The notes: generated from the letters alone by a model not told the origin. A stretch of DNA of 59,160 nucleotides from a virus (IMGVR_UViG_3300042516_004109:1-59160); one strand, 5' to 3'; positions 1 through 40,836 are shown, numbered from the stretch's first letter. A program made the numbers and translations.

Positions 1-170
1 ATAACATCTTTGACTTTATTCGAATTTGGGACAAGAAGATTTCTGATGATATCATCTATCCCAAAGTGTCAAGAAAGGTGCGCAAGTATGGTGCTTTTCT
101 TGCGGTGAATGTTGACAAGTATAAACTCTTGACAAAAGAAACTTTACTTGCTCAACGGAATACTATATAA
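1..170 (+). CDS. gp59: Helicase loader gp59, C-terminal fragment
   Basis: Frame 3 reads NIFDFIRIWDKKISDDIIYPKVSRKVRKYGAFL...TI* (TAA 168-170); resembles the gp59 C-terminus and lies immediately upstream of gp32. Confidence 0.75.
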   Translation, partial: NIFDFIRIWDKKISDDIIYPKVSRKVRKYGAFLAVNVDKYKLLTKETLLAQRNTI

Positions 171-27055: not shown

Positions 27056-28609
27056 ATGGCAAACACAATTAATGTTGCAATTATTAGCACAGCAAATACC
27101 TTCAATCAGTGGCGTATTAATGACAATCTCATGGCGAACGACATTAATGAGATTGTTCGCGGCAATTTTGTAAAACCTAAAGGAAATGTTACGATTAATG
27201 AAGGCTTTTTAAGACTTGCAAATACTACTGGTGGTGTTGTTCTCGATGTTGCTGATGATACAAATATCGATGGAACTTTAACTGTATTTAATGTTGAGTT
27301 AGATAATTCAACAAATCATCTATATGTCGACGCTGGTGATATTCATTATCGCCGTATGGGTGCAACTGATCTATATCAGATTAATACAAACACAGTTATC
27401 TATGCAACAAATGTAAGCATCTCAAATGCAACTGTTGGCGGAACATTTAATGTTTCTTCAAATACGCTGATCACTGCCTCGAATGTAACGATCTCAAATA
27501 CTCAGGTTGGCGGAACATTTAATGTGGCATCAAATACCACGATTTCTTCTCAGAAAGTAAGAGTTTCGAACACAACAGCAGATGCAAGATTTAATGTTTC
27601 CCCAAACACTTACTTCTTCGGTAATCATGTCAATATAGCAAACACTCATAGTGCTGCAACCTTCGAAGTTACACCAAATACCTTTATCTTTGCAAGCGCG
27701 AATGTTTCTGCTAATGTCAATGTTGGCGCAAGACTAGAAGTTACTGGTAACGCAAATCTATACTCTAATCTTGCAGTAGCCTGGAATACATTTACTGGGA
27801 ACGCCACTGTAACTCAAAATACTGTTACAGGTAATCTTGCTGTTACCCAAAATACGTCAACGGGAAATCTTGCTGTAACTCAAAATACGACATCAGGAAA
27901 TCTCGTTGTATCAAATAGAACTCAAACAAATAATTTAACAGTAGTAAGTCTTGCAAATATCTCAAATGCTAATTTGATCAATGCAACAATCACTACATTG
28001 ACTGTAATTGATCCGATTCAAGCACCAGCAACAACTGCTGATGACAAGTATATTCTTCGTTTCGGTGCAACAACAGATGGTAACGGAACATTTAGAGTAC
28101 AACGCTCTGCAGTTTCTGGGAATGCTGAATTATTCTGGAATGATATAACTGATTCTTGGAATTTCTTAGCAAATGGATTGCCGACGACTTTAAATACTGG
28201 AAATCTATCTGCTGCAAACTTAACTGTAACAGGTGCTATCAATACAACTGGAAACATCACAGGCACGATGAAGTCTGTGAAGGATTTCTTGGATACAAGC
28301 ACTGTTTCAGGAACTGTGTCTGCAAACCTTGCTAATTCAAACTGGTTCAAATACACTTTATCAGGTAATACAACATTCAATTTTATAAATGCTCCAATTT
28401 CTGGAACTTCAATGACATTCTCGTTGATTGTAATTCAAGGATCTGGTGGTGGAAAAACTGTTACTTTTAGTAATACAGTTTACTGGGCTGGTGGTCAAAT
28501 TCCTCCTGCTACAACAAGTGCTACTGGAAATACTGATTTGTGGACATTTACAACATATGATGGTGGCACATCATATATTGGCACTCTTGCTGTTAAAGAC
28601 GCTCGATAG
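27056..28609 (+). CDS. Tail fibre-like protein
   Basis: N-terminal ANTFNQWR..N anchor motif, Asn/Thr-rich beta repeats (GNLAVTQNT), C-terminal YWAGG.IPP...TYDGG domain. Confidence 0.75.
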   Translation: MANTINVAIISTANTFNQWRINDNLMANDINEIVRGNFVKPKGNVTINEGFLRLANTTGGVVLDVADDTNIDGTLTVFNVELDNSTNHLYVDAGDIHYRRMGATDLYQINTNTVIYATNVSISNATVGGTFNVSSNTLITASNVTISNTQVGGTFNVASNTTISSQKVRVSNTTADARFNVSPNTYFFGNHVNIANTHSAATFEVTPNTFIFASANVSANVNVGARLEVTGNANLYSNLAVAWNTFTGNATVTQNTVTGNLAVTQNTSTGNLAVTQNTTSGNLVVSNRTQTNNLTVVSLANISNANLINATITTLTVIDPIQAPATTADDKYILRFGATTDGNGTFRVQRSAVSGNAELFWNDITDSWNFLANGLPTTLNTGNLSAANLTVTGAINTTGNITGTMKSVKDFLDTSTVSGTVSANLANSNWFKYTLSGNTTFNFINAPISGTSMTFSLIVIQGSGGGKTVTFSNTVYWAGGQIPPATTSATGNTDLWTFTTYDGGTSYIGTLAVKDAR

Positions 28610-28617
28610 TATTATTC

Positions 28618-30360
28618 ATGGCACGCAGACCAGATACATTAGAGAAATCGTGGATTATTGGTCCATCGCGTGGCACACAAACATTTAATGCGCCATCGAA
28701 TCTTTTCATTGATTATGGTCGTCATGTCGCAACAGTCTCTGGTCGTGGTGGCTCTGGAAATGCTCCAGATGCAGTATATACATCAAATTATACCACAAAC
28801 TACAATATTGCTTATCCAATTTCAAATCAACCGATAGCAAATCGCCCAGAAACCGCATGGACAACAAACTACAATGTTGTTTATCCAATTGCAAATCAGC
28901 CGCTTGCAAATCAACCAGCAACTGCATTTACCACGAACTATACCACAAATTATAACATTGCGTATCCAATCGCAAACCAACCAGCGACTGCATACACAAT
29001 CAATTATAACACCAATTATAATATCGTATATCCAGTTGCAAATACACCAGAAACTGGTCGACCTGAAGTTGCGTGGGTAACAAACTATAATACTAATTAT
29101 AACACTGTGTATCCGATTGCGAATCAACCAGAAGCATCAAGACCTGTGACTGCATACTCTACGAATTATAACACTGTGTATCCAGTCGCGAATCAACCAG
29201 AAGCATCAAGACCTGTGACTGCATACTCTACGAATTATAATATTGCGTATCCAATCGATGAACAACCTGTTTTTGAAGTATTAACTGGATATAATACAAA
29301 CTATAATGTGATTTATCCAGTTGCAAATCAACCTGGAACTGGAACTTATAATCCAGCAACTTCGTTTAATTGGAATGCGTATATTGAATATGAGGTTGAA
29401 AAAAGAATAAGTGCACCAGCTGAGCCATTAGAATATTCAGTATTCGTAAGTAATGTGGAAAATAATTCTGGTTCAAATAACACTTGTCCAGTACCAGTTT
29501 ACACGGTTAATGGATTAATAAACAATGCGGCAAATGGACAACAGCAATATTACGCGGAATATACTTGCACACCTGTAGGAAATAATGAAAATTACAATAC
29601 CAATTATAATGTCGCATACCCAGTTGCTAACCAACCTGCAACATACAATCTTGCTTACAATACCAATTATAATGTTGCATATCCCGTAGCAAACCAACCT
29701 GCAACTGCATATTCTATTCTTTATAATACCAATTATAATGTCGCATACCCAGTTGCCAACCAACCAGCAACTGCGTATTCTATTCTTTATAATACCAATT
29801 ATAATGTCGCGTATCCAGTAGCAAATACACCAATTGCAAACCAACCAGCGACTGTATACACAATTAATTATGCAACGAATTATAACATTGCATATCCAAT
29901 CGCAAATCAGCCAGAAGCAGCGAGACCTATAACTGCATACTCAACGAATTATAATGTCGCATATCCAGTTGCCAATCAACCGATCGCAAACCAACCTGCC
30001 ACTGCATACACAATCAATTATAACACCAACTACAATGTAATCTATCCAATCGCAAATCAACCAATAACTGCATGGACGACAAATTATAGTACCAATTATA
30101 ACATTGTCTATCCAATCGCGAATCAGCCATTGGCGAATCAGCCTATCACAAGTTATATTCCTGGAAATGTTGGATCTGCGACTAATGTTCTCGGTGTAAA
30201 TTTCCCAGGTGGACCAATCGATCTTTCTGGGTTTAGTGGTCCTTCTGGAATAGCTCCTTATATCGCTGAAACTGTAGTTCAATATTGGCAGTATCCAGAT
30301 AACTCGAATTATCCCGTAGCAGTTCCACCTGGCGGACAAATTGTTGTCAAAATCGAGTAA
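28618..30360 (+). CDS. Repeat-stalk adhesin-like protein 1 (Tyr-tetrad/Pro-pentad repeats, unique central tip)
   Basis: Non-repetitive N (TFNAP..VSGRGG.GN) and C (FPGG...YPVAVPPGGQIVVKIE) ends flank YNTNYNVAY/PVANQ repeats; paralog of next gene. Confidence 0.7.
   Translation: MARRPDTLEKSWIIGPSRGTQTFNAPSNLFIDYGRHVATVSGRGGSGNAPDAVYTSNYTTNYNIAYPISNQPIANRPETAWTTNYNVVYPIANQPLANQPATAFTTNYTTNYNIAYPIANQPATAYTINYNTNYNIVYPVANTPETGRPEVAWVTNYNTNYNTVYPIANQPEASRPVTAYSTNYNTVYPVANQPEASRPVTAYSTNYNIAYPIDEQPVFEVLTGYNTNYNVIYPVANQPGTGTYNPATSFNWNAYIEYEVEKRISAPAEPLEYSVFVSNVENNSGSNNTCPVPVYTVNGLINNAANGQQQYYAEYTCTPVGNNENYNTNYNVAYPVANQPATYNLAYNTNYNVAYPVANQPATAYSILYNTNYNVAYPVANQPATAYSILYNTNYNVAYPVANTPIANQPATVYTINYATNYNIAYPIANQPEAARPITAYSTNYNVAYPVANQPIANQPATAYTINYNTNYNVIYPIANQPITAWTTNYSTNYNIVYPIANQPLANQPITSYIPGNVGSATNVLGVNFPGGPIDLSGFSGPSGIAPYIAETVVQYWQYPDNSNYPVAVPPGGQIVVKIE
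28780..30156 (+). repeat. Coding repeat array in two arms (28780-29349, about 29590-30156)
   Basis: Recurrent aataccaattataatgtcgc.tatccagt.gc.aa.caacc. Confidence 0.95.
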
Positions 30361-30371
30361 TTTAATATTCG

Positions 30372-30378
30372 CTAAATA
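30372..30378 (+). promoter_or_regulatory. Late promoter
   Basis: CTAAATA upstream of 30404. Confidence 0.6.
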
Positions 30379-30403
30379 CTATCATACAGTGTAGTGAGCG
30401 AAA

Positions 30404-32422
30404 ATGACAAAGGCTACAAACTTAAGAAAAAGCTGGATCGGTGGAGCTTCGAGAGTAACAACGACTTTTAATGCTCCAGGAAGTTTAACACTTCCATATG
30501 GGCAGTTTAAGGGGACTGTCTCTGGTCGTGCTGGAACAGGTAACGACCCAGTTGCAGCGACATATAGCATCACTTATGCTACCAATTATAATATTGCCTA
30601 TCCGATCGCAAATCAGCCGATCGCAAACCAACCAGCGACTGCATATACAATCAATTATAACACCAATTATAATGTCGCATATCCAATCGCTAACCAGCCG
30701 ATCGCAAACCAACCAGCGACTGCGTTTACTACAAATTATAACACCAATTATAACATTGCGTACCCAATCGCAAATCAACCAGAAGCATCAAGACCCGTAA
30801 CTGCATACTCTACGAATTATAACGTTGCTTATCCGATAGCAAATAGACCAGAAGCTGCAAGACCAGCGACGGCATACTCTACGAATTATAACACGAACTA
30901 TAATGTTGCGTATCCAGTTGCTAACCAACCAGCAACTGCGTATTCTATTCTTTATAATACCAATTATAATGTTGCGTATCCAGTTGCTAACCAACCAGCA
31001 ACTGCGTATTCTATTCTTTATAATACCAATTATAATGTTGCGTATCCAGTTGCCAATCAACCAGAAGCATCAAGACCTGTAACTGCGTATTCTATTCTTT
31101 ATAATACCAATTATAATGTTGCTTATCCGATCGCGGCTCAACCAGAATCATCTAGACCTATAACTGCTTATACTACAAATTATAACACTGCGTATCCAGT
31201 GGCTAATCAGCCAGAAGCATCAAGACCAGCAACTGCATATACTACAAATTATAGTACCAATTATAATGCTCCACTTGATCCAAGCTGGAGCGCATCCATG
31301 GACTTTAGCAATGTTGGATATTTGCAAATTGGATTTGAAGAAGGCATGTATAATAATTCAAATGGATATGAATTATTCCCATATACTGGCACTGGCACAT
31401 CTTTTGATACTGGAACTCAAATTATCAGCACACTTACCACATATGTTATTACTGGCACGCATGACAATTTGGGTCCTGGCACACTAACTATTAATTATAC
31501 TAATTTTCCAGGAAGTCCAGGAAACATTGATAATCAGCCAGTTGCAAACCAACCAGCGACTGCGTATTCTATTCTTTATAATACCAATTATAATGTTGCA
31601 TATCCAGTCGGGAATCAGCCAGCAACTGCGTATTCTATTCTTTACAATACAAACTATAACGTTGCGTATCCAGTAGCCAATCAACCAGAGGCATCTCGTC
31701 CAGCAACTGCATATTCTATCACATATTCAACCAATTATAATGTCGCATATCCAGTCGCGAATCAACCAGAAGCATCAAGACCTGTGACTGCATATAGTAC
31801 AAATTACAACGTTGCTTATCCAGTTGCAAATCAACCAGAAGCATCAAGACCTGTAACTGCATATACTACAAATTATAATACTGTGTATCCAGTTGCAAAT
31901 CAACCGATTGCAAATCAACCAGCGACTGCATACACAATCAATTATAACACCAATTATAACATCGCGTATCCAATTGCAAATCAGCCAGCAACTGCGTATT
32001 CTATTCTTTATAATACCAATTATAATGTCGCGTATCCAGTTGCAAATCGACCAATTGCAAATCAACCAGCGACTGCATACACAATCAATTATAATACCAA
32101 TTATAATACTGTGTATCCAATTGCAAATCGACCAATTGCAAACCAACCAGCGACTGCGTTTACTACAAATTATAATACCAATTATAACACTGTCTACCCA
32201 ATCGCAAATCAGCCAGAAACTGGTCGACCAATAACATCATATACTCCAGGTAATCCTGGCGCATCTACAACTGTTCTTGGTGTATTTTTCCCAGGAGGAG
32301 CAGTTTCTACTCTTGCTCCGACTGTAAGTCCAACTTTGGTCGACTATGAACGATTCCCTGATAATGCAAACTATCCCGTGGCAGTGCCTCCAGGTGGTCA
32401 GATCGTAATTAAGATTGAATAA
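30404..32422 (+). CDS. Repeat-stalk adhesin-like protein 2
   Basis: Same N/C caps and repeat grammar as 28618-30360, unrelated central tip. Confidence 0.7.
   Translation: MTKATNLRKSWIGGASRVTTTFNAPGSLTLPYGQFKGTVSGRAGTGNDPVAATYSITYATNYNIAYPIANQPIANQPATAYTINYNTNYNVAYPIANQPIANQPATAFTTNYNTNYNIAYPIANQPEASRPVTAYSTNYNVAYPIANRPEAARPATAYSTNYNTNYNVAYPVANQPATAYSILYNTNYNVAYPVANQPATAYSILYNTNYNVAYPVANQPEASRPVTAYSILYNTNYNVAYPIAAQPESSRPITAYTTNYNTAYPVANQPEASRPATAYTTNYSTNYNAPLDPSWSASMDFSNVGYLQIGFEEGMYNNSNGYELFPYTGTGTSFDTGTQIISTLTTYVITGTHDNLGPGTLTINYTNFPGSPGNIDNQPVANQPATAYSILYNTNYNVAYPVGNQPATAYSILYNTNYNVAYPVANQPEASRPATAYSITYSTNYNVAYPVANQPEASRPVTAYSTNYNVAYPVANQPEASRPVTAYTTNYNTVYPVANQPIANQPATAYTINYNTNYNIAYPIANQPATAYSILYNTNYNVAYPVANRPIANQPATAYTINYNTNYNTVYPIANRPIANQPATAFTTNYNTNYNTVYPIANQPETGRPITSYTPGNPGASTTVLGVFFPGGAVSTLAPTVSPTLVDYERFPDNANYPVAVPPGGQIVIKIE
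30566..32242 (+). repeat. Coding repeat array in two arms (30566-31270, 31538-32242)
   Basis: As above; includes near-exact 66-bp tandem copies around 30900-31060. Confidence 0.95.
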
Positions 32423-32485: not shown

Positions 32486-33088
32486 ATGCCATATCCAGTG
32501 CAACGTTATGCTCGTGTTTTAAATCGTTTTTGTGTCGCTACAAAAGCATTTACCAAAGAAGAAGTAGAAAAAATTCTTGCTCTTGAAGACTTGCAAAAGT
32601 TTCAAAAAGGCGCAATTGGTGGTGGCACAGCAAAGGGTCAAGTCAATAAGAAAAATCGCGATAGTGATGTCATGTGGGTGATGCATGAACAAAATTCTGA
32701 CTGGCTCTATCAAAAATTCTCAAGTTTAGTTTCTGCAGTCAATTATGATCATTTCATGTATGATGTTGAAGGTTTTGAGAACTTTCAATATACAGTTTAT
32801 CGATCTAAAGACAAGCAGCACTATGATTGGCATATCGATGCTGGAAATACATCAAGCCCATTTGAACGCAAGATTAGTGCATCATTAATTCTTACCGATC
32901 CAAGTAAGTATGAAGGCGGTGAATTCGAATGTGTGATGAATGGTCGTGTTGATGAGCCTTTTGTTGCAAAAGCAGAAATTGGTGATGTGATTTTCTTTGA
33001 TTCTCGCATGCCTCATCGCGTTCGCCCAGTTACTTCTGGTGTTCGTAAATCATTAGTATGTTGGATTATGGGCAAGAATACATGGTAA
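32486..33088 (+). CDS. 2OG-Fe(II) oxygenase (prolyl-hydroxylase/PKHD-like)
   Basis: YDWHID, RKISASL.L, YEGGEF, H.V.PVTSG.RKSLVCW. Confidence 0.92.
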   Translation: MPYPVQRYARVLNRFCVATKAFTKEEVEKILALEDLQKFQKGAIGGGTAKGQVNKKNRDSDVMWVMHEQNSDWLYQKFSSLVSAVNYDHFMYDVEGFENFQYTVYRSKDKQHYDWHIDAGNTSSPFERKISASLILTDPSKYEGGEFECVMNGRVDEPFVAKAEIGDVIFFDSRMPHRVRPVTSGVRKSLVCWIMGKNTW

Positions 33089-33816
33089 ATCTAAAAAAAC
33101 TTAGATTTTGGGATAATCCAATAATTGAGTTTTATTGTCACCCAGAACTCTATGGAATTATTCCTGAGCCAAAAGCGGCAGTAAAGAGTCTGCCTGACTG
33201 GTTTAAGAATTTGGAGCCAACATTTGGTGATGGTAGAGATTCATTTGGCAATAAATCCATGTCTGCTAAAAAATGCCTTCCGCTATTAGATGGAATGTCT
33301 TTAGGATTCACTATTCCGTTATGCGGCGATGTGCATGTAAGATCAAACTATAACAATAGTCAATTTGATATAACAAATCCTCCAGGTATCAAAGTTTGTG
33401 AATTTCATGACGCCAATCAAGTTGGTGGAAATAGTGGAATTAAATTAAACCATGGCAATCCTTTGAAATTCCTCAATCCATGGGTTGTTAAAACTGCTCC
33501 AGGGTGGTCTGCATTGTTCATCAATCCAATGAACAATTATGAACACCCATTCACATGTTTGGGCGCAATGGTTGATACTGACAAATACCCAAAAGAAGTA
33601 AACTTTCCTGCTCTATGGCATGAAACAGATTCTGACTATCATATTCCTGCAGGAACACCGTTGGTGACAGTGATTCCAATTAAAAGACATTCCTTTGAAA
33701 AGAAACCTCGCGTTCGATCAATGTCACCAAAAGAATTCAAAGAGATTTCTGTAATACAAAAACGACAAAATATGCGCACACATCATTATACCTATGATTT
33801 GAGAGAGAAGAAATAA
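33082..33816 (+). CDS. Conserved phage hypothetical (DUF6065/dUTPase-like beta-clip?)
   Basis: KKCLP.LD....GF.IP, KF.NPW.VKT.PGWS, VDTD, IPAGTPL..VIP. Confidence 0.55.
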   Translation: MVNLKKLRFWDNPIIEFYCHPELYGIIPEPKAAVKSLPDWFKNLEPTFGDGRDSFGNKSMSAKKCLPLLDGMSLGFTIPLCGDVHVRSNYNNSQFDITNPPGIKVCEFHDANQVGGNSGIKLNHGNPLKFLNPWVVKTAPGWSALFINPMNNYEHPFTCLGAMVDTDKYPKEVNFPALWHETDSDYHIPAGTPLVTVIPIKRHSFEKKPRVRSMSPKEFKEISVIQKRQNMRTHHYTYDLREKK

Positions 33817-33818
33817 TT

Positions 33819-34553
33819 ATGTTTAATTTTCTTAAAAAAGATAAACCCGATCTTGAATTTATAGATTCATCTGAGGTAGTGTATCCTCACTATCCACCAA
33901 TTCTTGCAAAAGATTTAAAGCCTTTAAAAGAGCATCAAGAAAAAAAGTTTGAGAGTTATATCTTTCCACAATGTCCTGGAATGCATGATTATTCTAGAAT
34001 GGGTTATATAATTCCAGCATGGAGTAATTTTCATATCAAAGCAAACAAGGCTGGTTGCGTTGCATTTTTGGGTAGCGATGGTGAAAATAGAGATAAACGA
34101 GGCACTCCATTAGGTCAACCAAAAAATATGGATGTGAAAATTACTGATGGTTTATTTAAACTTAATGGTATCGATCCTTGTATTTGGAATTTTCCAGGTG
34201 CATGGAAAGTTTTTGGCAATGGGAATGTTTCCGCATTAGTCATGCCAGCATTTTTTCATTCAACATTTTTAGATGATCTTTATGTTTATCCAGGAGTAGT
34301 AGATTATAATAAATTTACAACGCTTAATTTTATATGTTCACCGAAACATGAATGCGAAGTTCAGATTAAAGCTGGCGAGCCAATATTGCATGTGATTCCT
34401 TTTATCACCAACAAAGATATTGTTGCAAGTTATGGTCCTGCATCAAAAGAACAAGATGACTACAGTAAAATACTTAAATGGTTTCATGAATTAAATTTCT
34501 ATAGAAAATACTATATGATTCGTAAAAAATACAAGATAATTAAAAAGAGTTAA
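33819..34553 (+). CDS. Paralog of preceding hypothetical protein
   Basis: CPGM.DY...GYIIPAW, PGVVD, IKAGEPI..VIP align by eye with 33082-33816. Confidence 0.55.
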   Translation: MFNFLKKDKPDLEFIDSSEVVYPHYPPILAKDLKPLKEHQEKKFESYIFPQCPGMHDYSRMGYIIPAWSNFHIKANKAGCVAFLGSDGENRDKRGTPLGQPKNMDVKITDGLFKLNGIDPCIWNFPGAWKVFGNGNVSALVMPAFFHSTFLDDLYVYPGVVDYNKFTTLNFICSPKHECEVQIKAGEPILHVIPFITNKDIVASYGPASKEQDDYSKILKWFHELNFYRKYYMIRKKYKIIKKS

Positions 34554-34558
34554 TATCA

Positions 34559-35521
34559 ATGGCAAAAATCTTCGTAAACATTTGTTCATATCGAGATAAA
34601 TTACTCGCACCGACTCTCTATAGTTTGTTGGAAACTGAGTCTGGACGAAACGCTATTACATATGGAGTTTTCGAACAAACAAAACTCGAAGATAGTTTGC
34701 AAACAACACATCCTGATCTTATCAATCATAAACAAATTCGATATAAACGAATTGATCCACAATTTTCTGATGGAGTTGTTTGGGCACGATGTATTAATTC
34801 GATGCAAATTTATGATGAAGATTTCCAGTATCAGATAGATTCTCATATGTTATTTGATAAAGATTGGGATAATCAATTGATACTTGATTATAATGATGCA
34901 TGTAAAGTGGCTGGGAAAAATAAAGTAGTTTTAACTTCTGGCACAAAAAATTACGATCTAGAAAATGAAAGAATCATTAAACACACTTTAACTGATGATA
35001 TTACTGTCAAGTTAGGTTATTTTCAATTCGATAAAGATCTAAGATTGCATGCTCATGGTGCATGGGTTCCAGCAACAGAGCGGGTTACTCCATCAATTCA
35101 TATCTGCGCTGGCAACTTTTTCATGCCTGTAAGTTGGATCAAAGACGTTGGATACAATACAAAGATATTTTTTGAAGGCGAAGAACAGATTTTTGTTATT
35201 AGTTCGATTCTTGCTGGATATAGCATATTCCATCATCGCAAGATTAAAGTATATCATTATCTTCGATCTGGTAGCCATGACACCAAACAAACGATTAATC
35301 CTGTTGCCAGCTCAGAAAAATTAAAGATGAATCACGATCGATCTAAGAAAGAGATCATTGATTACATCTATTCTCTATCCGAGGAACAGCTCGAACACTA
35401 TCGTCGCATAACAGGTGTCGATTATATAAATAGAAAACTAGAGGATCGTGCAATTTCTCGTAAAATCTCTCCCAATCCTGGAATTGTAAATGATTGGGAG
35501 GTGCCGAATAGAGATGGTTAA
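34559..35521 (+). CDS. Skp1-type hydroxyproline N-acetylglucosaminyltransferase-like (GT60)
   Basis: IFVNICSYRD, GVVWAR, QIDSHMLF..DWD, AGNFF, FEGEE, YH.Y: hallmark motifs of the Gnt1/GlcNAc family. Confidence 0.8.
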   Translation: MAKIFVNICSYRDKLLAPTLYSLLETESGRNAITYGVFEQTKLEDSLQTTHPDLINHKQIRYKRIDPQFSDGVVWARCINSMQIYDEDFQYQIDSHMLFDKDWDNQLILDYNDACKVAGKNKVVLTSGTKNYDLENERIIKHTLTDDITVKLGYFQFDKDLRLHAHGAWVPATERVTPSIHICAGNFFMPVSWIKDVGYNTKIFFEGEEQIFVISSILAGYSIFHHRKIKVYHYLRSGSHDTKQTINPVASSEKLKMNHDRSKKEIIDYIYSLSEEQLEHYRRITGVDYINRKLEDRAISRKISPNPGIVNDWEVPNRDG

Positions 35522-36046
35522 ATGTCTATAAAGATTCAACAATTTATTGGTGGGGGATGTACTGCAGCTGTTGGTTGTAATATAAGCCTTGAAACGAATG
35601 TTTCACCACAAAAATTCAACTTAAATAAGAGTTATTACCTTCTACGAGGTGGTATTGTTGTTGATTACGAGGGCGAGAATACAGTAAATGTTGTCTGCCC
35701 ATATAATTCTAATTGGAATCCATATGTAGATCAATGGAATTATGATAAAAATGTTATCCTTACGAGTACACCGAATACAAAATTTACAGTTGTATCTGTA
35801 ACCGAAGGTAATACAAATAATTCAGTCGCATTTACTTCTTCTGTACTGATGCTAGAAAACTCTAATTTAACAAAGACAATGAATGCTAACTCTTATTTGT
35901 TAGTTTTTGGATCCGCGTACTCTATCGATAATGTAAATTACCATAATATTAACGGTCAATCTAGAACAATATTTGCTAATTCTCCCCGAGAAGTGCAAAT
36001 ATCGACTTCTAATTCATGTGAATTGATCTATCTTGAAACTATCTAA
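35522..36046 (+). CDS. Hypothetical protein
   Basis: Abuts previous stop; beta-rich; no recognisable motif. Confidence 0.6.
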   Translation: MSIKIQQFIGGGCTAAVGCNISLETNVSPQKFNLNKSYYLLRGGIVVDYEGENTVNVVCPYNSNWNPYVDQWNYDKNVILTSTPNTKFTVVSVTEGNTNNSVAFTSSVLMLENSNLTKTMNANSYLLVFGSAYSIDNVNYHNINGQSRTIFANSPREVQISTSNSCELIYLETI

Positions 36047-36088: not shown

Positions 36089-36424
36089 ATGGCGCAATTT
36101 GTAGAAGTAGATCTAGATCAAGGAACAACCTTTAATCTTGATATTGTAGTTAAGAACGATGATGGCAGCAGAATTAATGTTGCAGGCTACACATTTTCTT
36201 CCTCAATGCGCAAATCATTTTATTCTTCAAGTGTGACAGCAAATTTAACCGTTGCAGTGATTAATGCTGCGAATGGTGATGTTAGATTTTCGCTAAATGC
36301 AGCGTCAACTGCTAACATAAAAGCAGGTCGTTATGTGTTTGATATCAAACAAATTAATACTTCAAATGTAACATCGCGTATGTTTGAGGGGATTATTACA
36401 GTTAATCCACAGGTAACGAAATGA
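36089..36424 (+). CDS. Small Ig-like virion/fibre adaptor protein (BppU-N-like)
   Basis: [20 protein letters not shown]...V.P.VT; ATGA-coupled to collagen gene. Confidence 0.65.
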
Positions 36425-39400
36425 CGACAATTTCAGTTTCATCCACTGCTGGTCCACAAGGTCCACAAGGTCCACAAGGTTCTACTGGTCCTCAAGGACC
36501 ACAAGGTCCACAAGGATCAGTTGGTCCACAAGGTCCACAAGGTCCATCTGGTTCTACTGGTCCACAAGGTCCATCTGGTGCACAAGGTGCTGCGTCAACT
36601 GTTGCTGGTCCTCAAGGACCACAAGGACCACAAGGTGTCGCTGGTCCACAAGGACCACAAGGACCACAGGGTGTAACTGGTGCACAAGGTCCATCTGGTC
36701 CACAAGGTGTCGCTGGTCCATCTGGTCCACAAGGTGATACAGGTCCTCAAGGTCCTCAAGGTGTCACTGGTGCACAAGGACCACAGGGTGCAACTGGTCC
36801 ACAGGGTCCTCAAGGTGTCACTGGTGCACAAGGACCACAAGGTCCGCAAGGCGTCACTGGTGCACAAGGTCCATCTGGTGCTCAAGGTAATCAAGGTAAT
36901 CAAGGTGCACAAGGCATTCAAGGTTTAACAGGTGATACTGGTCCACAAGGTCCTCAAGGTCCTCAAGGTGTTGCGGGACCACAAGGTCCACAAGGTGTCG
37001 CTGGTCCACAGGGTGTCGCTGGTGCACAAGGTCCATCTGGTGCTCAAGGTAATCAAGGTGCACAAGGCATTCAAGGTTTAACAGGTGATACTGGTCCACA
37101 AGGTCCACAAGGTGTCGCTGGTCCATCTGGTCCATCTGGTCCACAGGGTGTTGCTGGTCCACAAGGTCCATCTGGTGCTCAAGGTAATCAAGGTGCACAA
37201 GGCATTCAAGGTTTAACAGGTGATACTGGTGGACAAGGTCCATCTGGTCCATCTGGTCCATCTGGTCCACAAGGTGTCGCTGGTCCACAAGGTGTCGCTG
37301 GTGCACAAGGTCCACAAGGTGATACAGGTCCATCTGGTCCATCTGGTCCACAAGGTGTCGCTGGTCCACAAGGTGTCGCTGGTCCACAAGGTCCACAGGG
37401 TGATACAGGTCCACAAGGTCCTTCTGGCGTGTCAAATGTTCCTGGTCCGCAAGGTCCACAGGGTGATACAGGTCCTCAAGGTCCTCAAGGTCCACAAGGC
37501 GTCACTGGTCCACAAGGTCCATCTGGTGCTAAAGGTGATCAGGGTGAATTTGGTGGCGCAACTTTTGAGTACATCTACTTAACAAATACTGCAAACACAG
37601 ATCCTGGTGTAGCAAATTTAAAATTCGATAATATAACATTTTCTTCTGTATCACGATTGTATATCGACTTTACAGATTTAAGTACTGCAAACGTATTTAA
37701 TTATTTGCAAACTATTGATGACTCTACGTCAACAATCAAAGGAACATTTAAAGTTGCAAATACTGCAAATGTAAGTGAATTTGCATACTTTAATATTAAT
37801 GGATCTCACGAACACGTTTCAAGTTATTTCTCTGTTCCTGTTGCACATTTAAGTGGTGTTACAAGTTTTTCAAATTCTACCAATGTCATCATCACATTTG
37901 TTCGTACTGGTGATAAAGGTGATACAGGTCCACAAGGTCCGCAAGGTCCGCAAGGTCCACAGGGTGCTGGTCCTCAAGGTCCACAGGGTCCTCAAGGTCC
38001 ACAGGGTCCTCAAGGTCCACAGGGTCCACAGGGTCCCCAAGGACCACAAGGTGTCACTGGTGCAAGAAATTACACTGTAACGAATAGTGGTGCCAGTCAT
38101 TATGTGATTGATGGCGCAAATGATCCTACATTGTATTTGATGCGCGGATTCACATATGAATTCTTTGTAAGTGCATCTGGACATCCTTTCTGGATCCAAA
38201 CAGTTCCTGCGCCATACAGTGTTGGAAATGTTTACAGTAGTGGTGTAACAAATAATGGTGACGATGTTGGCACTGTAATATTTGCGGTTCCATATAATGC
38301 ACCAAATACTCTTTATTATGTTTGCCAAAACCATTCTTCAATGTCTGGTACAATTATTATCAGTGATGTGGGTCCAGTTGGTCCTCAAGGTCCACAAGGT
38401 GTAACTGGTGATACAGGCAATCCTGGACCACAAGGTCCAACTGGTCCAGGTGGTAATACTGGTGCACAAGGTCCACAGGGTGTTGTTGGTCCACAGGGTC
38501 CACAGGGTCCACAAGGTCCAACTGGCGCAGATTCAACAGTTGCTGGTCCTCAGGGTCCATCTGGTCCATCTGGTGCTCAAGGTAATCAAGGTGCACAAGG
38601 CATTCAAGGTTTAACAGGTGATACTGGTCCACAAGGACCACAAGGTCCACAAGGTCCACAAGGTCCTCAAGGTGATGCATCGAGTGTTGCTGGTCCACAA
38701 GGACCACAGGGTCCATCTGGTGCTCAAGGTAATCAAGGCGCACAAGGTTCACAAGGCATTCAGGGTTTAACAGGTGATACTGGTCCACAGGGTCCACAGG
38801 GTCCACAAGGTGATGCATCAAGTGTTGCTGGACCACAGGGTCCACAGGGTCCGCAAGGTTCTACTGGTGACACAGGACCAACAGGTCCACAAGGACCACA
38901 AGGTCCACAGGGTGCTGGTCCACAAGGTCCGCAAGGTCCTCAAGGTGATGCATCAACTGTTGCTGGTCCACAAGGACCACAAGGTCCACAAGGACCACAA
39001 GGTGCTGCGTCAAGTGTTGCTGGTCCACAGGGTCCACAGGGAGCAATTGGTCCGCAAGGTCCGCAGGGCGTCACTGGTGCAAGAACATATACAGTGACGA
39101 ATGTCGGAGCTGGTGCTTATTCAATCGATGGTTCTAGCAATCCAACATTAAATTTACTGCGTGGATTTACTTATGAATTTAGTATAAGTGCTTCTGGACA
39201 CCCTTTCTGGATTCAAACAGTTTCTGGTGCATATAGTTCTGGAAATATATATTCATCAGGCATTACAAATAACGGCACTCAAGTTGGAACGCTAACATTC
39301 GCTGTTCCTTATGATGCACCAAGTACTCTTTATTATGTTTGCCAATTCCACGCATCGATGCAGGGTGTGATTAATATTAGTGATGTTGGTCCTATTGGTC

Positions 39401-40836
39401 CACAAGGTCCACAGGGACCACAAGGACCACAAGGTTCAATTGGATCAACTGGTGATGTTGGTCCTCAAGGTCCGCAAGGTCCGCAAGGTCCACAGGGTCC
39501 GCAAGGTGCTGGTCCTCAAGGTCCACAAGGACCACAAGGTGATGCGTCAAGTGTTGCTGGTCCGCAAGGTCCACAAGGTCCTCAAGGTGTCACTGGTGCA
39601 CAGGGTCCACAAGGTCCTCAAGGTGTCACTGGTGCACAGGGTCCACAGGGTCCTCAAGGTGTGACTGGTCCACAAGGTCCACAGGGTCCTCAAGGTGTGA
39701 CTGGTCCTCAAGGTCCTCAAGGTGATACAGGTCCACAGGGTCCTCAGGGTCCACAAGGACCACAAGGTGTTAAGGGTGATACTGGTGAATTTGGTGGAGC
39801 AACATTTGATTATGTGTTTAGTGCTAATACAGCAAACACCGATCCAACAGCTGGTTTCGTCAAGTTTAATAATGCAACACTTCTATCTGCAACTGAGATG
39901 TATATTGATAACATCGATCGTTTAAGCGCAAATGTGTTTAATTACCTGAACACAATCGATGACTCAACATCAACAATCAAAGGCACGTTCAAGATTGCAA
40001 ATTCTGCAAACGTTTTAGAATATGCATTTTTCAATATTAACGGTACTCATCTTCATGTTACTGATTGGTTCGTTGTTCCTGTTGCTGGATTGAATACAAC
40101 ACTTGTCGGATCAAACTTCTCAAATAGCACTAATGTCATCATCACATTTGTTCGTACTGGTGATAAAGGTGACGCAGGTCCACAAGGTCCTCAAGGTGTG
40201 ATTGGTCCTCAAGGTCCTCAAGGTCCACAAGGTGTCACTGGTCCACAAGGACCACAAGGTCCGCAAGGTGTCACTGGTCCACAGGGTCCACAGGGTCCAC
40301 AAGGTGTCATTGGTGATACAGGACCACAAGGTCCTCAAGGTGTGATTGGTCCTCAAGGTCCTCAAGGTCCTCAAGGTCCACAAGGTGTCACTGGTCCTCA
40401 AGGTCCACAAGGTCCACAAGGTCCTCAAGGACCACAAGGTCCTCAAGGTCCTCAAGGCAACACAGGTCCAACTGGACCAAATGAAGGTGCAACGCTTAAA
40501 GCTGTAAAAGACTTTATGGTTTCGAATACAAACACTAATGGCGCAAATACTGTCAGTCTTACAACTGCTAACTATTTCCGTCATACATTAACAGCAAATG
40601 TGACATTTACATTCACGGATGCACCAACTTCTGGAACAGGTCAAATGTTCTCGCTATTATTGTCGCAAGATGGAACTGGTGGAAGATTGCCATCATTCTC
40701 CAATACAATTTATTGGGCTGGTGGATCTATTCCTCCTGCGACAACAGATGCAAATGCTCGTGACTTGTGGACATTTATCACATATGATGGTGGTACGACA
40801 TATTGGGGCACTTTGACTATGAAGGACCTTCGATAA
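36421..40836 (+). CDS. Collagen-like fibre with two globular A domains, two cupredoxin-like domains and a C-terminal fibre domain
   Basis: Long (GPQ)n tracts interrupted by duplicated domains; H...CxxHxxM twice. Confidence 0.88.

What the first reader, a model, noticed from the sequence alone, without database searches (positions are those of the whole stretch)
30566..32242. Residue-level covariation between facing blocks: SI(L/T)Y always faces PExxR
Seen: under the antiparallel register, all 8 Tyr blocks starting SILY/SITY in this gene face a Pro block whose middle unit is PEASR/PESSR/PETGR. Five of 6 three-unit blocks starting TINY/TTNY/STNY face PIANQ. Both SILY blocks in the paralog also face PEASR. 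Inference: at least two distinct 'pair types', i.e. a small peptide pairing alphabet, with possible use in protein design.
Basis: partly seen in the sequence, partly recalled or inferred. Interest (0 to 1): 0.8.

Follow-up and report, generated by a model that had tools for sequence, protein, structure and literature searches.

The report
Tyr/Pro zipper code in phage fibre
Two neighbouring phage tail-fibre-region proteins seem to fold back on themselves, so that tyrosine-rich blocks in one half lie against proline-rich blocks in the other, following a strict matching code seen across the whole family.

Summary
Gene A (30404..32422, 672 aa) and paralog B (28618..30360, 580 aa) each have a conserved N-domain, an N-arm, a variable central domain, a C-arm and a conserved C-domain. 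The arms alternate Tyr blocks (4-aa units) and Pro blocks (5-aa units).

Counting blocks from the two ends, each Tyr block faces a Pro block with the same number of units. This holds for A in 18/18 pairs, B in 13/13, 24 database homologues in 138/148 and 25 IMG/VR proteins in 329/338. No permutation reached these values, and shifted, parallel and same-arm pairings score 39-64%.

All 8 SI(L/T)Y blocks of A face PExxR, and 5 of 6 xxNY blocks face PIANQ. Family-wide there are four pair types:
- xI(L/V)Y with PExSR
- xITY with PExGR
- x(I/V)NY with PEx(A/N/T)R
- x(T/S)NY with P(I/L/V)xxQ

Proteins with the same block layout switch both partners together, so tandem duplication does not explain the pattern.

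Best reading: an out-and-back (hairpin) fibre stalk whose block lengths and pair types fix the register. The family has no Pfam, PHROG or PDB match and no cultured-phage relative, and AlphaFold2 leaves the arms unpredicted. Physical contact, oligomeric state and fold remain inferred.

The parts
30404..32422 (+). Gene A, 672 aa: Tyr/Pro-repeat protein holding the finding
   Evidence: ORF. Homologues found. No Pfam or PHROG family.
30404..30562 (+). A, conserved N-terminal domain (aa 1-53)
   Evidence: Conserved across the family. AF2 pLDDT 73-95 over aa 11-50.
30563..31264 (+). A, N-arm (aa 54-287): 10 Tyr blocks alternating with 9 Pro blocks
   Evidence: Parse; boundaries. Tandem-repeat periods of 66, 69 and 81 nt.
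31265..31531 (+). A, central variable domain (aa 288-376), the presumed distal tip
   Evidence: Not repetitive. L018_248 has another domain type here, although the two proteins are 89% identical overall and share the same block architecture.
31532..32242 (+). A, C-arm (aa 377-613): Pro and Tyr blocks whose unit numbers mirror the N-arm
   Evidence: Unit numbers match in 18/18 facing pairs. Pair list.
32243..32419 (+). A, conserved C-terminal domain (aa 614-672)
   Evidence: Conserved. AF2 pLDDT 86-97.
28618..30360 (+). Gene B, 580 aa: tandem paralog with the same architecture. N-dom 28618..28776, N-arm 28777..29346, tip 29347..29592, C-arm 29593..30156, C-dom 30157..30357
   Evidence: Unit numbers match in 13/13 facing pairs. 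Both SILY blocks face PEASR.

Best explanation
A and B are virion fibre-type proteins of an uncultured T4-like aquatic myovirus.

Each chain runs out along an N-arm to a variable central (distal, presumably host-binding) domain and back along a C-arm. The two arms therefore lie antiparallel, and the conserved N- and C-domains meet at the base.

Along the stalk, extended Tyr-ladder blocks (Y every 4th residue) of one arm pack against Pro-periodic blocks (P every 5th residue, possibly polyproline-II-like) of the other, unit for unit.

Side chains of the first Tyr unit and of the last-but-one Pro unit are complementary and come in four matched types. One feature is an Ile present on either the Tyr strand (xI..) or the Pro strand (PI...), but rarely on both.

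The aperiodic order of 2- and 3-unit blocks, together with the pair types, makes only one register fully matched. I read this as a register code that lets a long, highly repetitive stalk fold without slipping.

Shown: the sequence architecture, the block-number complementarity, the covariation and its specificity for the antiparallel register, and conservation across the family. Inferred: physical contact, hairpin rather than inter-chain pairing, secondary structure, oligomeric state, and the fibre and receptor role.
For: Register:
- Equal unit numbers in facing blocks: 138/148 in 24 database proteins and 329/338 in 25 IMG/VR proteins. One example is 28/28 blocks in L006_6001.
- Controls for set 1: shift +-1 gives 70/110 and 73/115, shift +-2 gives 34/70 and 31/76, parallel 76/134, same-arm neighbours 128/287. 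The permutation maximum was 117 of 148 in 20,000 shuffles.
- Controls for set 2: shift +-1 gives 183/298 and 179/293, parallel 165/323, same-arm neighbours 280/646, and 0 of 5,000 permutations reached the observed value.

Pair types:
- Ile at position 2 of the first Tyr unit against PE..R: [[52,4],[0,36]], p=2e-21, and [[170,2],[6,34]], p=9e-31.
- Combined counts: xITY with PExGR 47/50; xI(L/V)Y with PExSR 61/65; x(I/V)NY with PEx(A/N/T)R 107/121; other xxNY with P(I/L/V)xxQ 65/65.
- In 2:2 pairs: 16/16 and 138/139.
- Using only distinct sequence combinations keeps the signal.

Co-switching among proteins of the same architecture: 46 aligned positions, 28 variable, 22 fully on-rule.

The mutual-information map shows an antiparallel diagonal: T5-P8, T3-P9, T2-P10, T1-P13, q5-P15, q3-u1.

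Only shift 0 satisfies both size and type. For A this is 18/18 and 15/18, against at most 12/17 and 7/17 at other shifts.

Arm lengths track each other: r=0.89, n=44, with crude automatic boundaries.

Gene A has no inverted DNA repeats.

Context is a T4-like baseplate and tail-fibre module, syntenic in related contigs.

N-domain plus C-domain co-fold gave weak support only. The ipSAE was 0.36 and the best of 3 controls 0.00. The mark was reached by 58 of 80 solved complexes and 2 of 110 mismatched pairs. Scores of 0.60 or under came from only 7 of those 80 and from both mismatches that passed. The runs agree in at least 93% of contacts, and the partner's pLDDT is at least 68.
Against: - No structure exists, and AlphaFold2 gives pLDDT of about 30 for both arms in two runs, so contact is inferred from covariation alone.
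- Exceptions: P0001 has arms of about 65 and 187 aa. P0038 lacks one repeat relative to P0028 and matches in only 2/4 blocks. Either could be a real variant or a collapsed metagenome assembly.
- 14 of 121 x(I/V)NY blocks face another type.
- Many proteins are related. L018_248 is 89% identical to A, and L017_6001 is nearly identical to P0012. Raw counts therefore overstate the number of independent events.
- Divergent subfamilies with 8-9-aa units were not parsed and not counted.
- 4-aa and 5-aa units cannot pair residue for residue in a plain beta ladder, so the geometry is unknown.
- The second, larger arm-length survey was noisy: Pearson 0.56, Spearman 0.81, n=76, with several tip-detection failures.
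Confidence: 0.75

Rival explanations
1. The same antiparallel N-arm/C-arm pairing occurs between chains rather than within one chain. This would be a head-to-tail dimer or higher oligomer, with the central domains in the middle of a rod.
For: A two-fold antiparallel dimer predicts exactly the same facing register, block-number match and covariation. The weak N-domain/C-domain co-fold signal (0.36 against best control 0.00, weak by the tool's own calibration) fits both models. Tip-less relatives such as P0047 (173 aa, T3P3T3P3) leave little room for a turn.
Against: The central domain is the variable, swapped part (A against L018_248), as expected for a distal receptor-binding tip. Both conserved ends would have to occur at both ends of a rod, and no fibre I know of attaches that way (my own knowledge). 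The genes lie in a baseplate and tail-fibre module.
Confidence: 0.13
2. There is no contact. The association is a by-product of repeat history: duplicated Tyr+Pro units, gene conversion, or zones of similar repeats near the base and near the tip of both arms.
For: Some repeats in A are recent tandem copies (66-nt period, 95% matches, 30886..31064). Shifted registers keep some association (shift -1 p=9e-4; on-rule 70/136 and 78/132). This shows some zonal structure.
Against: - Partners lie in different arms, and DNA duplication cannot create a mirrored order.
- Same-arm neighbours associate weakly (p=0.045 and 0.74; 94/140 and 47/85 on-rule against 195/212 facing).
- The block-number match is exact only at shift 0.
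- Proteins of one architecture switch both partners together.
- There are no inverted DNA repeats.
Confidence: 0.04
3. A parallel homotrimer with an axial stagger of one block, so that a Tyr block faces the neighbouring Pro block of the same arm in another chain.
For: Most phage fibres are parallel trimers (my own knowledge). Tyr and Pro blocks alternate along each arm.
Against: Same-arm neighbouring blocks have equal unit numbers in only 128/287 and 280/646 cases. Their types are weakly associated. This model does not explain the N-arm/C-arm mirror.
Confidence: 0.03

Closest known systems
Phage T4 long tail fibre tip (gp37 'needle', domains D10/D11)
   Same: A phage fibre end in which the chain goes out to the receptor-binding tip and comes back, so that an early and a late segment form one domain. 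D10 is residues 811-881 and 1010-1026 (passages of PMC6957217). It lies in a T4-type tail-fibre gene region.
   Different: gp37 is a trimer held by seven iron ions bound by His residues (same passages). A and B have no HxH motif, no sequence match to any PDB chain and no Tyr/Pro block grammar in common with it. The trimeric state of A and B is unknown.
Collagen and collagen-like phage fibres (register set by pairwise side-chain contacts)
   Same: Pro-rich, periodic, extended strands packed side by side. The idea that specific side-chain pairs fix the register is the same (my own knowledge). A collagen-like fibre gene lies 4 kb downstream (36421..40836).
   Different: A and B have no Gly-X-Y run. 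The arms have two different strand types of 4- and 5-residue period, and the pairing is antiparallel.
Glycine-rich polyproline-II helix bundle domains (snow-flea antifreeze type, phage adhesin type)
   Same: Antiparallel packing of extended non-alpha, non-beta strands, also found in phage adhesins (abstract of bioRxiv 10.1101/2023.11.25.568672, seen in the search listing). Distant family members (P0059, P0062, P0073-P0075) have Gly/Pro/Asn/Tyr-rich arms.
   Different: The arms of A and B hold 0-1% Gly. These bundles need Gly at the contacts (my own knowledge).
PP-fold (pancreatic polypeptide): prolines of a polyproline-II helix interdigitating with tyrosines
   Same: Tyr/Pro packing as the glue between two segments (recalled, not from a call).
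   Different: There the Tyr partner is an alpha-helix in a 36-residue peptide. Here the Tyr blocks are Asn/Thr/Val-rich and repeat many times.
Pentapeptide-repeat proteins (Pfam PF00805)
   Same: Five-residue repeats.
   Different: No Pfam match. Those fold as a four-sided beta-helix from one repeat type. That gives no reason for an N-arm/C-arm mirror.

Membership tests
T4 gp37-type needle (out-and-back fibre tip) | Sequence or profile similarity to gp37 or the collar domain | tested here: not met
   No PDB chain at E<=1. No PHROG or Pfam family. No Foldseek PDB hit at E<=0.001 with the P0010 model.
T4 gp37-type needle (out-and-back fibre tip) | His-x-His iron sites along the stalk | tested here: not met
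   0 HxH motifs in A and B.
T4 gp37-type needle (out-and-back fibre tip) | Chain runs to the tip and back, with early and late segments side by side | tested here: inconclusive
   Supported by block-number mirror and covariation and weakly by the N/C-domain co-fold (0.36 against best control 0.00, weak). There is no structure.
Collagen-like fibre | Gly at every third residue | tested here: not met
   No run of 4 or more G-x-y triplets. Gly is 0-1% of the arms.
Glycine-rich PPII bundle domain | Gly-rich repeats at helix contacts | tested here: not met
   2 Gly in the 471 arm residues of A.
Pentapeptide repeat (PF00805) | Match to the Pfam model | tested here: not met
   0 Pfam families at E<=0.01.
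Phage tail fibre / virion protein (functional class) | Presence in the virion, attachment to the baseplate | not testable with these tools
   Only gene context is available. A and B lie between baseplate-wedge and tail-fibre genes and a collagen-like fibre, and the region is syntenic in 23 of 24 related contigs.

The most novel reading that the evidence does not exclude
This is a new kind of fibrous protein architecture. It is a long two-arm zipper in which 4-residue Tyr units and 5-residue Pro units pair one to one. At least four mutually exclusive side-chain pair types, together with the order of 2-, 3- and 4-unit blocks, form a natural register code. Such a code could in principle be copied to design register-specific extended peptide pairs.
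Probability: 0.5. Interest if true: 0.9.

Novelty: new variant of a known kind. Interest (0 to 1): 0.8.

Why it matters
If the arms really pair, this is an almost deterministic natural pairing code between two different extended strand types. It can be read from sequence alone and sits in a family with no solved relative that AlphaFold2 cannot model.
- It gives structural biologists a well-defined target.
- It gives protein designers a candidate set of orthogonal strand pairs and a way to fix register in repetitive fibres.
- For phage biology, it describes a constant stalk with exchangeable central domains (A against L018_248). That is the layout expected for host-range switching in an uncultured group of aquatic T4-like phages.

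Tried and rejected
- Structure prediction. AF2 on P0010 (20-row alignment) and on A (60 rows) gave confident N- and C-domains, a tip at pLDDT about 50 and arms at about 30. No geometry could be read.
- Foldseek against PDB with the P0010 model found 0 hits at E<=0.001. Against BFVD with the A model there was one unnamed 503-aa viral protein at E=1.6e-4, probably a relative, and the rest were noise.
- Annotation and homology searches all drew blanks for A and B: Pfam and PHROGs, PDB sequences and the ESM Atlas. The 50,697 phage records gave no match with whole A, its C-domain or downstream DNA.
- Literature searches found no paper on this family or its code. PMC2938197 (passages) deals with other cyanophage dioxygenases and did not help.
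- Arm-length correlation with automatic tip detection is noisy. It gave r=0.89 for n=44, but Pearson 0.56 and Spearman 0.81 for n=76, with clear tip-detection failures such as L012_6001. I treat it as secondary evidence.
- DNA palindrome or antisense explanation: there are no inverted repeats. The antisense and out-of-frame ORFs are by-products of the repeats.
- A plain 1:1 beta ladder does not fit. It works for 3-unit blocks only and leaves one residue too many or too few for 2- and 4-unit blocks (my arithmetic).

Full report
WHAT IS THERE. The finding's coordinates (30566..32242) are residues 55-613 of a 672-aa ORF, gene A, at 30404..32422 on the + strand. Directly upstream lies a 580-aa paralog, gene B, at 28618..30360. 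Tandem Repeats Finder reports periods of 66, 69 and 81 nt, that is 22, 23 and 27 aa.

Both proteins have the same five-part plan (boundaries):
- a conserved N-domain of about 53 aa
- an N-arm of repeats
- a non-repetitive central domain of about 80-90 aa
- a C-arm of repeats
- a conserved C-domain of about 60 aa

The arms alternate two block types. Tyr blocks are made of 4-residue units ending in an aromatic residue (for example SILY NTNY NVAY). Pro blocks are made of 5-residue units starting with Pro (for example PVANQ PEASR PVTAY). Blocks have 2 or 3 units, which explains the three periods (12+10, 8+15, 12+15 aa). The arms of A are 17% Asn, 17% Ala, 15% Tyr, 12% Thr and 11% Pro, with almost no Gly and no HxH motif.

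THE OBSERVATION. I paired N-arm block i, counted from the N-domain, with C-arm block i, counted back from the C-domain.
- All 8 SILY/SITY blocks of A face a Pro block with middle unit PEASR (6), PESSR (1) or PETGR (1).
- 5 of 6 three-unit TINY/TTNY/STNY blocks face PIANQ. The exception is TINY facing PEAAR.
- Both SILY blocks of B face PEASR.

For A alone the table is [[8,0],[1,5]], Fisher p=0.003. B alone is not significant (p=0.17).

IS THE REGISTER REAL? In that register the number of units in every Tyr block equals the number of units in the facing Pro block: 18/18 in A and 13/13 in B. Shuffling block sizes within the C-arm reaches this in 77 of 100,000 trials for A and 407 of 100,000 for B.

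HOMOLOGUES, SET 1. A word-indexed search gave 35 relatives. A full HMMER scan of 1.84 billion representatives gave 49 hits at E<=0.001, many of them fragments and a few unrelated long proteins. A strict parser produced arms for 32 of the 80 sequences at hand.

I dropped 8 of these before counting:
- P0040, P0041 and P0044 are fragments.
- P0047 has no central domain, so its two arms are the same blocks.
- P0009, P0018, P0022 and P0035 had fewer than two parsable blocks in one arm.

Divergent subfamilies with arms of 8-9-aa units (for example P0004, P0016-P0025, P0029-P0034) do not fit the strict grammar and were not counted. By eye the rule also seems to hold at the base of P0004 and P0015, but that is not a count.

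In the 24 remaining proteins, facing blocks have equal unit numbers in 138 of 148 pairs. The controls were:
- register shifts of +-1: 70/110 and 73/115
- register shifts of +-2: 34/70 and 31/76
- parallel pairing: 76/134
- neighbouring blocks of the same arm: 128/287
- 20,000 permutations: mean 97.3, maximum 117, none reaching 138

Most of the 10 mismatches are at the last, irregular block next to the central domain. The real exceptions are P0038 (2/4; it lacks one 23-aa repeat that its relative P0028 has) and P0001 (arms of about 65 and 187 aa). I cannot tell natural variants from collapsed metagenome assemblies.

HOMOLOGUES, SET 2. A scan of IMG/VR gave 24 loci with 34 family ORFs. Of these 26 were distinct and 25 parsable; L021_734 was not. 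Unit numbers match in 329 of 338 facing pairs. The runs are perfect through to the central domain in every long protein, for example 28/28 in L006_6001, 22/22 in L014_5317 and 20/20 in L008_5225. L023 uses 4-unit blocks, again matched.

Controls for set 2:
- shifts of +-1: 183/298 and 179/293
- parallel pairing: 165/323
- same-arm neighbours: 280/646
- 0 of 5,000 permutations reach 329

The two sets are not fully independent. L018_248 is 89% identical to A, and L017_6001 is nearly identical to P0012.

PAIR TYPES. Among the 92 three-by-three pairs of set 1, Ile at position 2 of the first Tyr unit goes with PE..R in the facing middle unit. With Ile the counts are 52 PE..R to 4 other; without Ile they are 0 to 36 (p=2e-21). 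The same test on same-arm neighbours gives p=0.045 (next block) and 0.74 (previous block). On shifted registers it gives p=0.1 and 9e-4. Set 2 gives [[170,2],[6,34]], p=9e-31, and [[120,2],[5,30]] when each distinct sequence combination is counted once.

Combined counts are:

| First Tyr unit | Facing Pro unit | 3:3 pairs | 2:2 pairs | 4:4 pairs |
|---|---|---|---|---|
| xITY | PExGR | 47/50 | - | - |
| xI(L/V)Y | PExSR | 61/65 | - | - |
| x(I/V)NY | PEx(A/N/T)R | 107/121 | 16/16 | - |
| other xxNY | P(I/L/V)xxQ/R | 65/65 | 138/139 | 4/4 |

In 2-unit blocks the covarying Pro unit is the first one. The partner of the first Tyr unit is therefore always the last-but-one Pro unit, as expected for antiparallel strands.

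NOT DUPLICATION HISTORY. The partners sit in different arms, a few hundred residues apart. Duplicating DNA cannot produce a mirrored order of two different block types, and gene A has no inverted DNA repeats.

Among six groups of proteins that share a block architecture there are 46 aligned block-pair positions. The class differs between proteins at 28 of them. At 22 of those 28 every state obeys the rule, meaning both partners changed together. For example, at index 3 of the 376-398-aa group the states are TILY/PEASR, TINY/PEAAR and NITY/PESGR. The 6 off-rule positions mostly involve x(I/V)NY facing PIxxQ.

Some zonal structure exists, since shifted registers keep part of the association. It is far weaker than the exact register: 195/212 on-rule facing, against 70/136 and 78/132 when shifted, and 94/140 and 47/85 for same-arm neighbours.

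HINTS ON GEOMETRY (inference). I built a mutual-information map from 304 facing pairs, giving 274 distinct windows. Its strongest couplings lie on an antiparallel diagonal: T5-P8, T3-P9, T2-P10 and T2-P7, T1-P13, the aromatic before the Tyr block with P15, and q3-u1. This suggests that the PxxxY junctions of the two arms face each other, and that Tyr units 1..n-1 face Pro units n-1..1.

Ile sits either on the Tyr strand (xI.., opposite PE..R) or on the Pro strand (PI..Q, opposite xT/S..). It is rarely on both, and in these counts never on neither. That looks like conservation of one buried aliphatic side chain per site.

On the Pro side the coupled columns fall into sets three residues apart (P7, P10, P13 and P9, P12, P15), and Glu7 and Arg10 are always three apart. 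This would suit a polyproline-II-like strand. However, the Pro-unit types are discrete, so these columns are not independent and the point is only an idea.

A plain residue-for-residue beta ladder cannot hold for 2-, 3- and 4-unit blocks alike. AlphaFold2 gives no help. In P0010 and in A the N- and C-domains are confident (pLDDT 73-97), the central domain is at about 50 and the arms are at about 30.

A co-fold of A's N-domain (1-54) with its C-domain (612-672) gave weak support only:
- The ipSAE was 0.36 and the best of 3 controls was 0.00.
- The mark was reached by 58 of 80 solved complexes and 2 of 110 mismatched pairs.
- At 0.60 or under it was reached by only 7 of those 80, and by both mismatches that passed.
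- The runs agree in at least 93% of contacts, and the partner's pLDDT is at least 68.

WHAT IT IS. The window is an IMG/VR virus record of 59,160 bases, estimated 34% complete. PHROG matches place A and B downstream of T4-type baseplate hub and wedge genes, directly after a tail-fibre-like gene (27056..28609), and upstream of a 1471-aa collagen-like tail-fibre gene. By the baseplate wedge protein, the nearest cultured phages are Pelagibacter phage HTVC008M, Methylophilales phage Melnitz and Synechococcus myoviruses, at only 35-39% identity. No record of the 50,697-phage collection holds a relative of A. Most related contigs carry two tandem paralogs, as the window does.

The central domain is the exchangeable part. 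L018_248 has the same block architecture as A and is 89% identical overall, yet carries a different, Cys-containing central domain. P0001 and P0002 combine an A-type central domain with a B-type C-domain.

My best reading (confidence 0.75) is an out-and-back fibre stalk. The conserved ends lie together at the base and a variable distal domain sits at the turn. The block-length pattern and pair types make only one register fully matched: for A, 18/18 sizes and 15/18 types at shift 0, against at most 12/17 and 7/17 elsewhere.

The main rival (0.13) is the same pairing between chains in a head-to-tail oligomer, which the sequence data cannot exclude. Repeat history without contact (0.04) and a staggered parallel trimer (0.03) are disfavoured by the controls above.

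COMPARISON WITH KNOWN SYSTEMS. The nearest analogue in topology is the T4 gp37 needle, where domain D10 is built from residues 811-881 and 1010-1026 and seven irons line the stalk (passages of PMC6957217). A and B share no sequence, motif or profile with it.

They are not collagen-like, because they lack Gly-X-Y. They are not Gly-rich polyproline-II bundles, because the arms hold 0-1% Gly. They are not pentapeptide-repeat proteins, because there is no Pfam match. Tyr/Pro interdigitation as in the PP-fold, and pairing codes as in coiled coils or collagen heterotrimers, are working analogies from my own knowledge, not memberships.

Five literature searches found no description of this family or code. 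Subscription journals and supplementary files were not searchable, so a prior description cannot be excluded.

VERDICT. I file it as a new variant of a known kind, a repeat-built phage fibre with out-and-back topology. There is an even chance that it is a new fibrous architecture with a readable register code. Interest 0.8.

Noticed in passing
window 32486..36046; loci L006-L027, L029: The Tyr/Pro-repeat gene(s) are followed directly by the same cassette in 23 of 24 related IMG/VR loci (L028 ends at the gene). The cassette is a 2OG-Fe(II) oxygenase (PF13640), DUF6065, a 244-aa ORF, a PF11397 'GlcNAc' glycosyltransferase and a 174-aa ORF, then a collagen-like fibre. As I recall, PF11397 is the Skp1 hydroxyproline GlcNAc-transferase family. 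The pair of enzymes may hydroxylate and glycosylate prolines of the Pro blocks or of the collagen-like fibre. Not tested.
   Followed up: partly
window 31265..31531; L018:248-2233; P0001, P0002: The central domains are swapped between otherwise close proteins. L018_248 is 89% identical to A overall and has the same block architecture, but carries a Cys-containing central domain. P0001 and P0002 have an A-type central domain with a B-type C-domain.
   Followed up: partly
P0058, P0059, P0062, P0064, P0073-P0075: Distant relatives keep the N- and C-domains but have arms of Gly/Pro/Asn/Tyr-rich or Ser/Tyr/Thr-rich short repeats (for example YNPGSGGN, PGNYV, ASYTYTP). The two-arm plan therefore seems older than the Tyr/Pro grammar.
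   Followed up: no
P0047 (173 aa), P0051 (159 aa): These are short forms with N- and C-domains and a few repeats but no central domain. P0047 is T3P3T3P3. They could be natural minimal hairpins or assembly collapses.
   Followed up: no
L006:3682-5922, L012:3586-5922, L014:3255-5294: The upstream paralog in several contigs uses irregular 5-residue Tyr units (NAGVY, NTITY, NALTY), 2-unit Pro blocks starting with PE..R, and a 17-aa insert (PEGNVTPGAPTRP...). The strict parser stops there, so these arms were only partly counted.
   Followed up: no
window 27056..28609: A 517-aa protein with its own degenerate repeats (NVSISNATVGGTFNVSSNT...) and a C-terminal match to a PHROG tail-fibre family (phrog_7760, E=1.6e-10). 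It sits directly upstream of B in the window and in related contigs.
   Followed up: no
window 28822..32234, both strands: Several 90-130-aa ORFs in other frames and on the minus strand inside A and B are Ile/Cys/Arg-rich. They are by-products of the repeat and not genes.
   Followed up: no
window 33058..33088: The DUF6065 ORF (33058..33816) overlaps the end of the 2OG-oxygenase ORF (32486..33088) by 31 bases.
   Followed up: no
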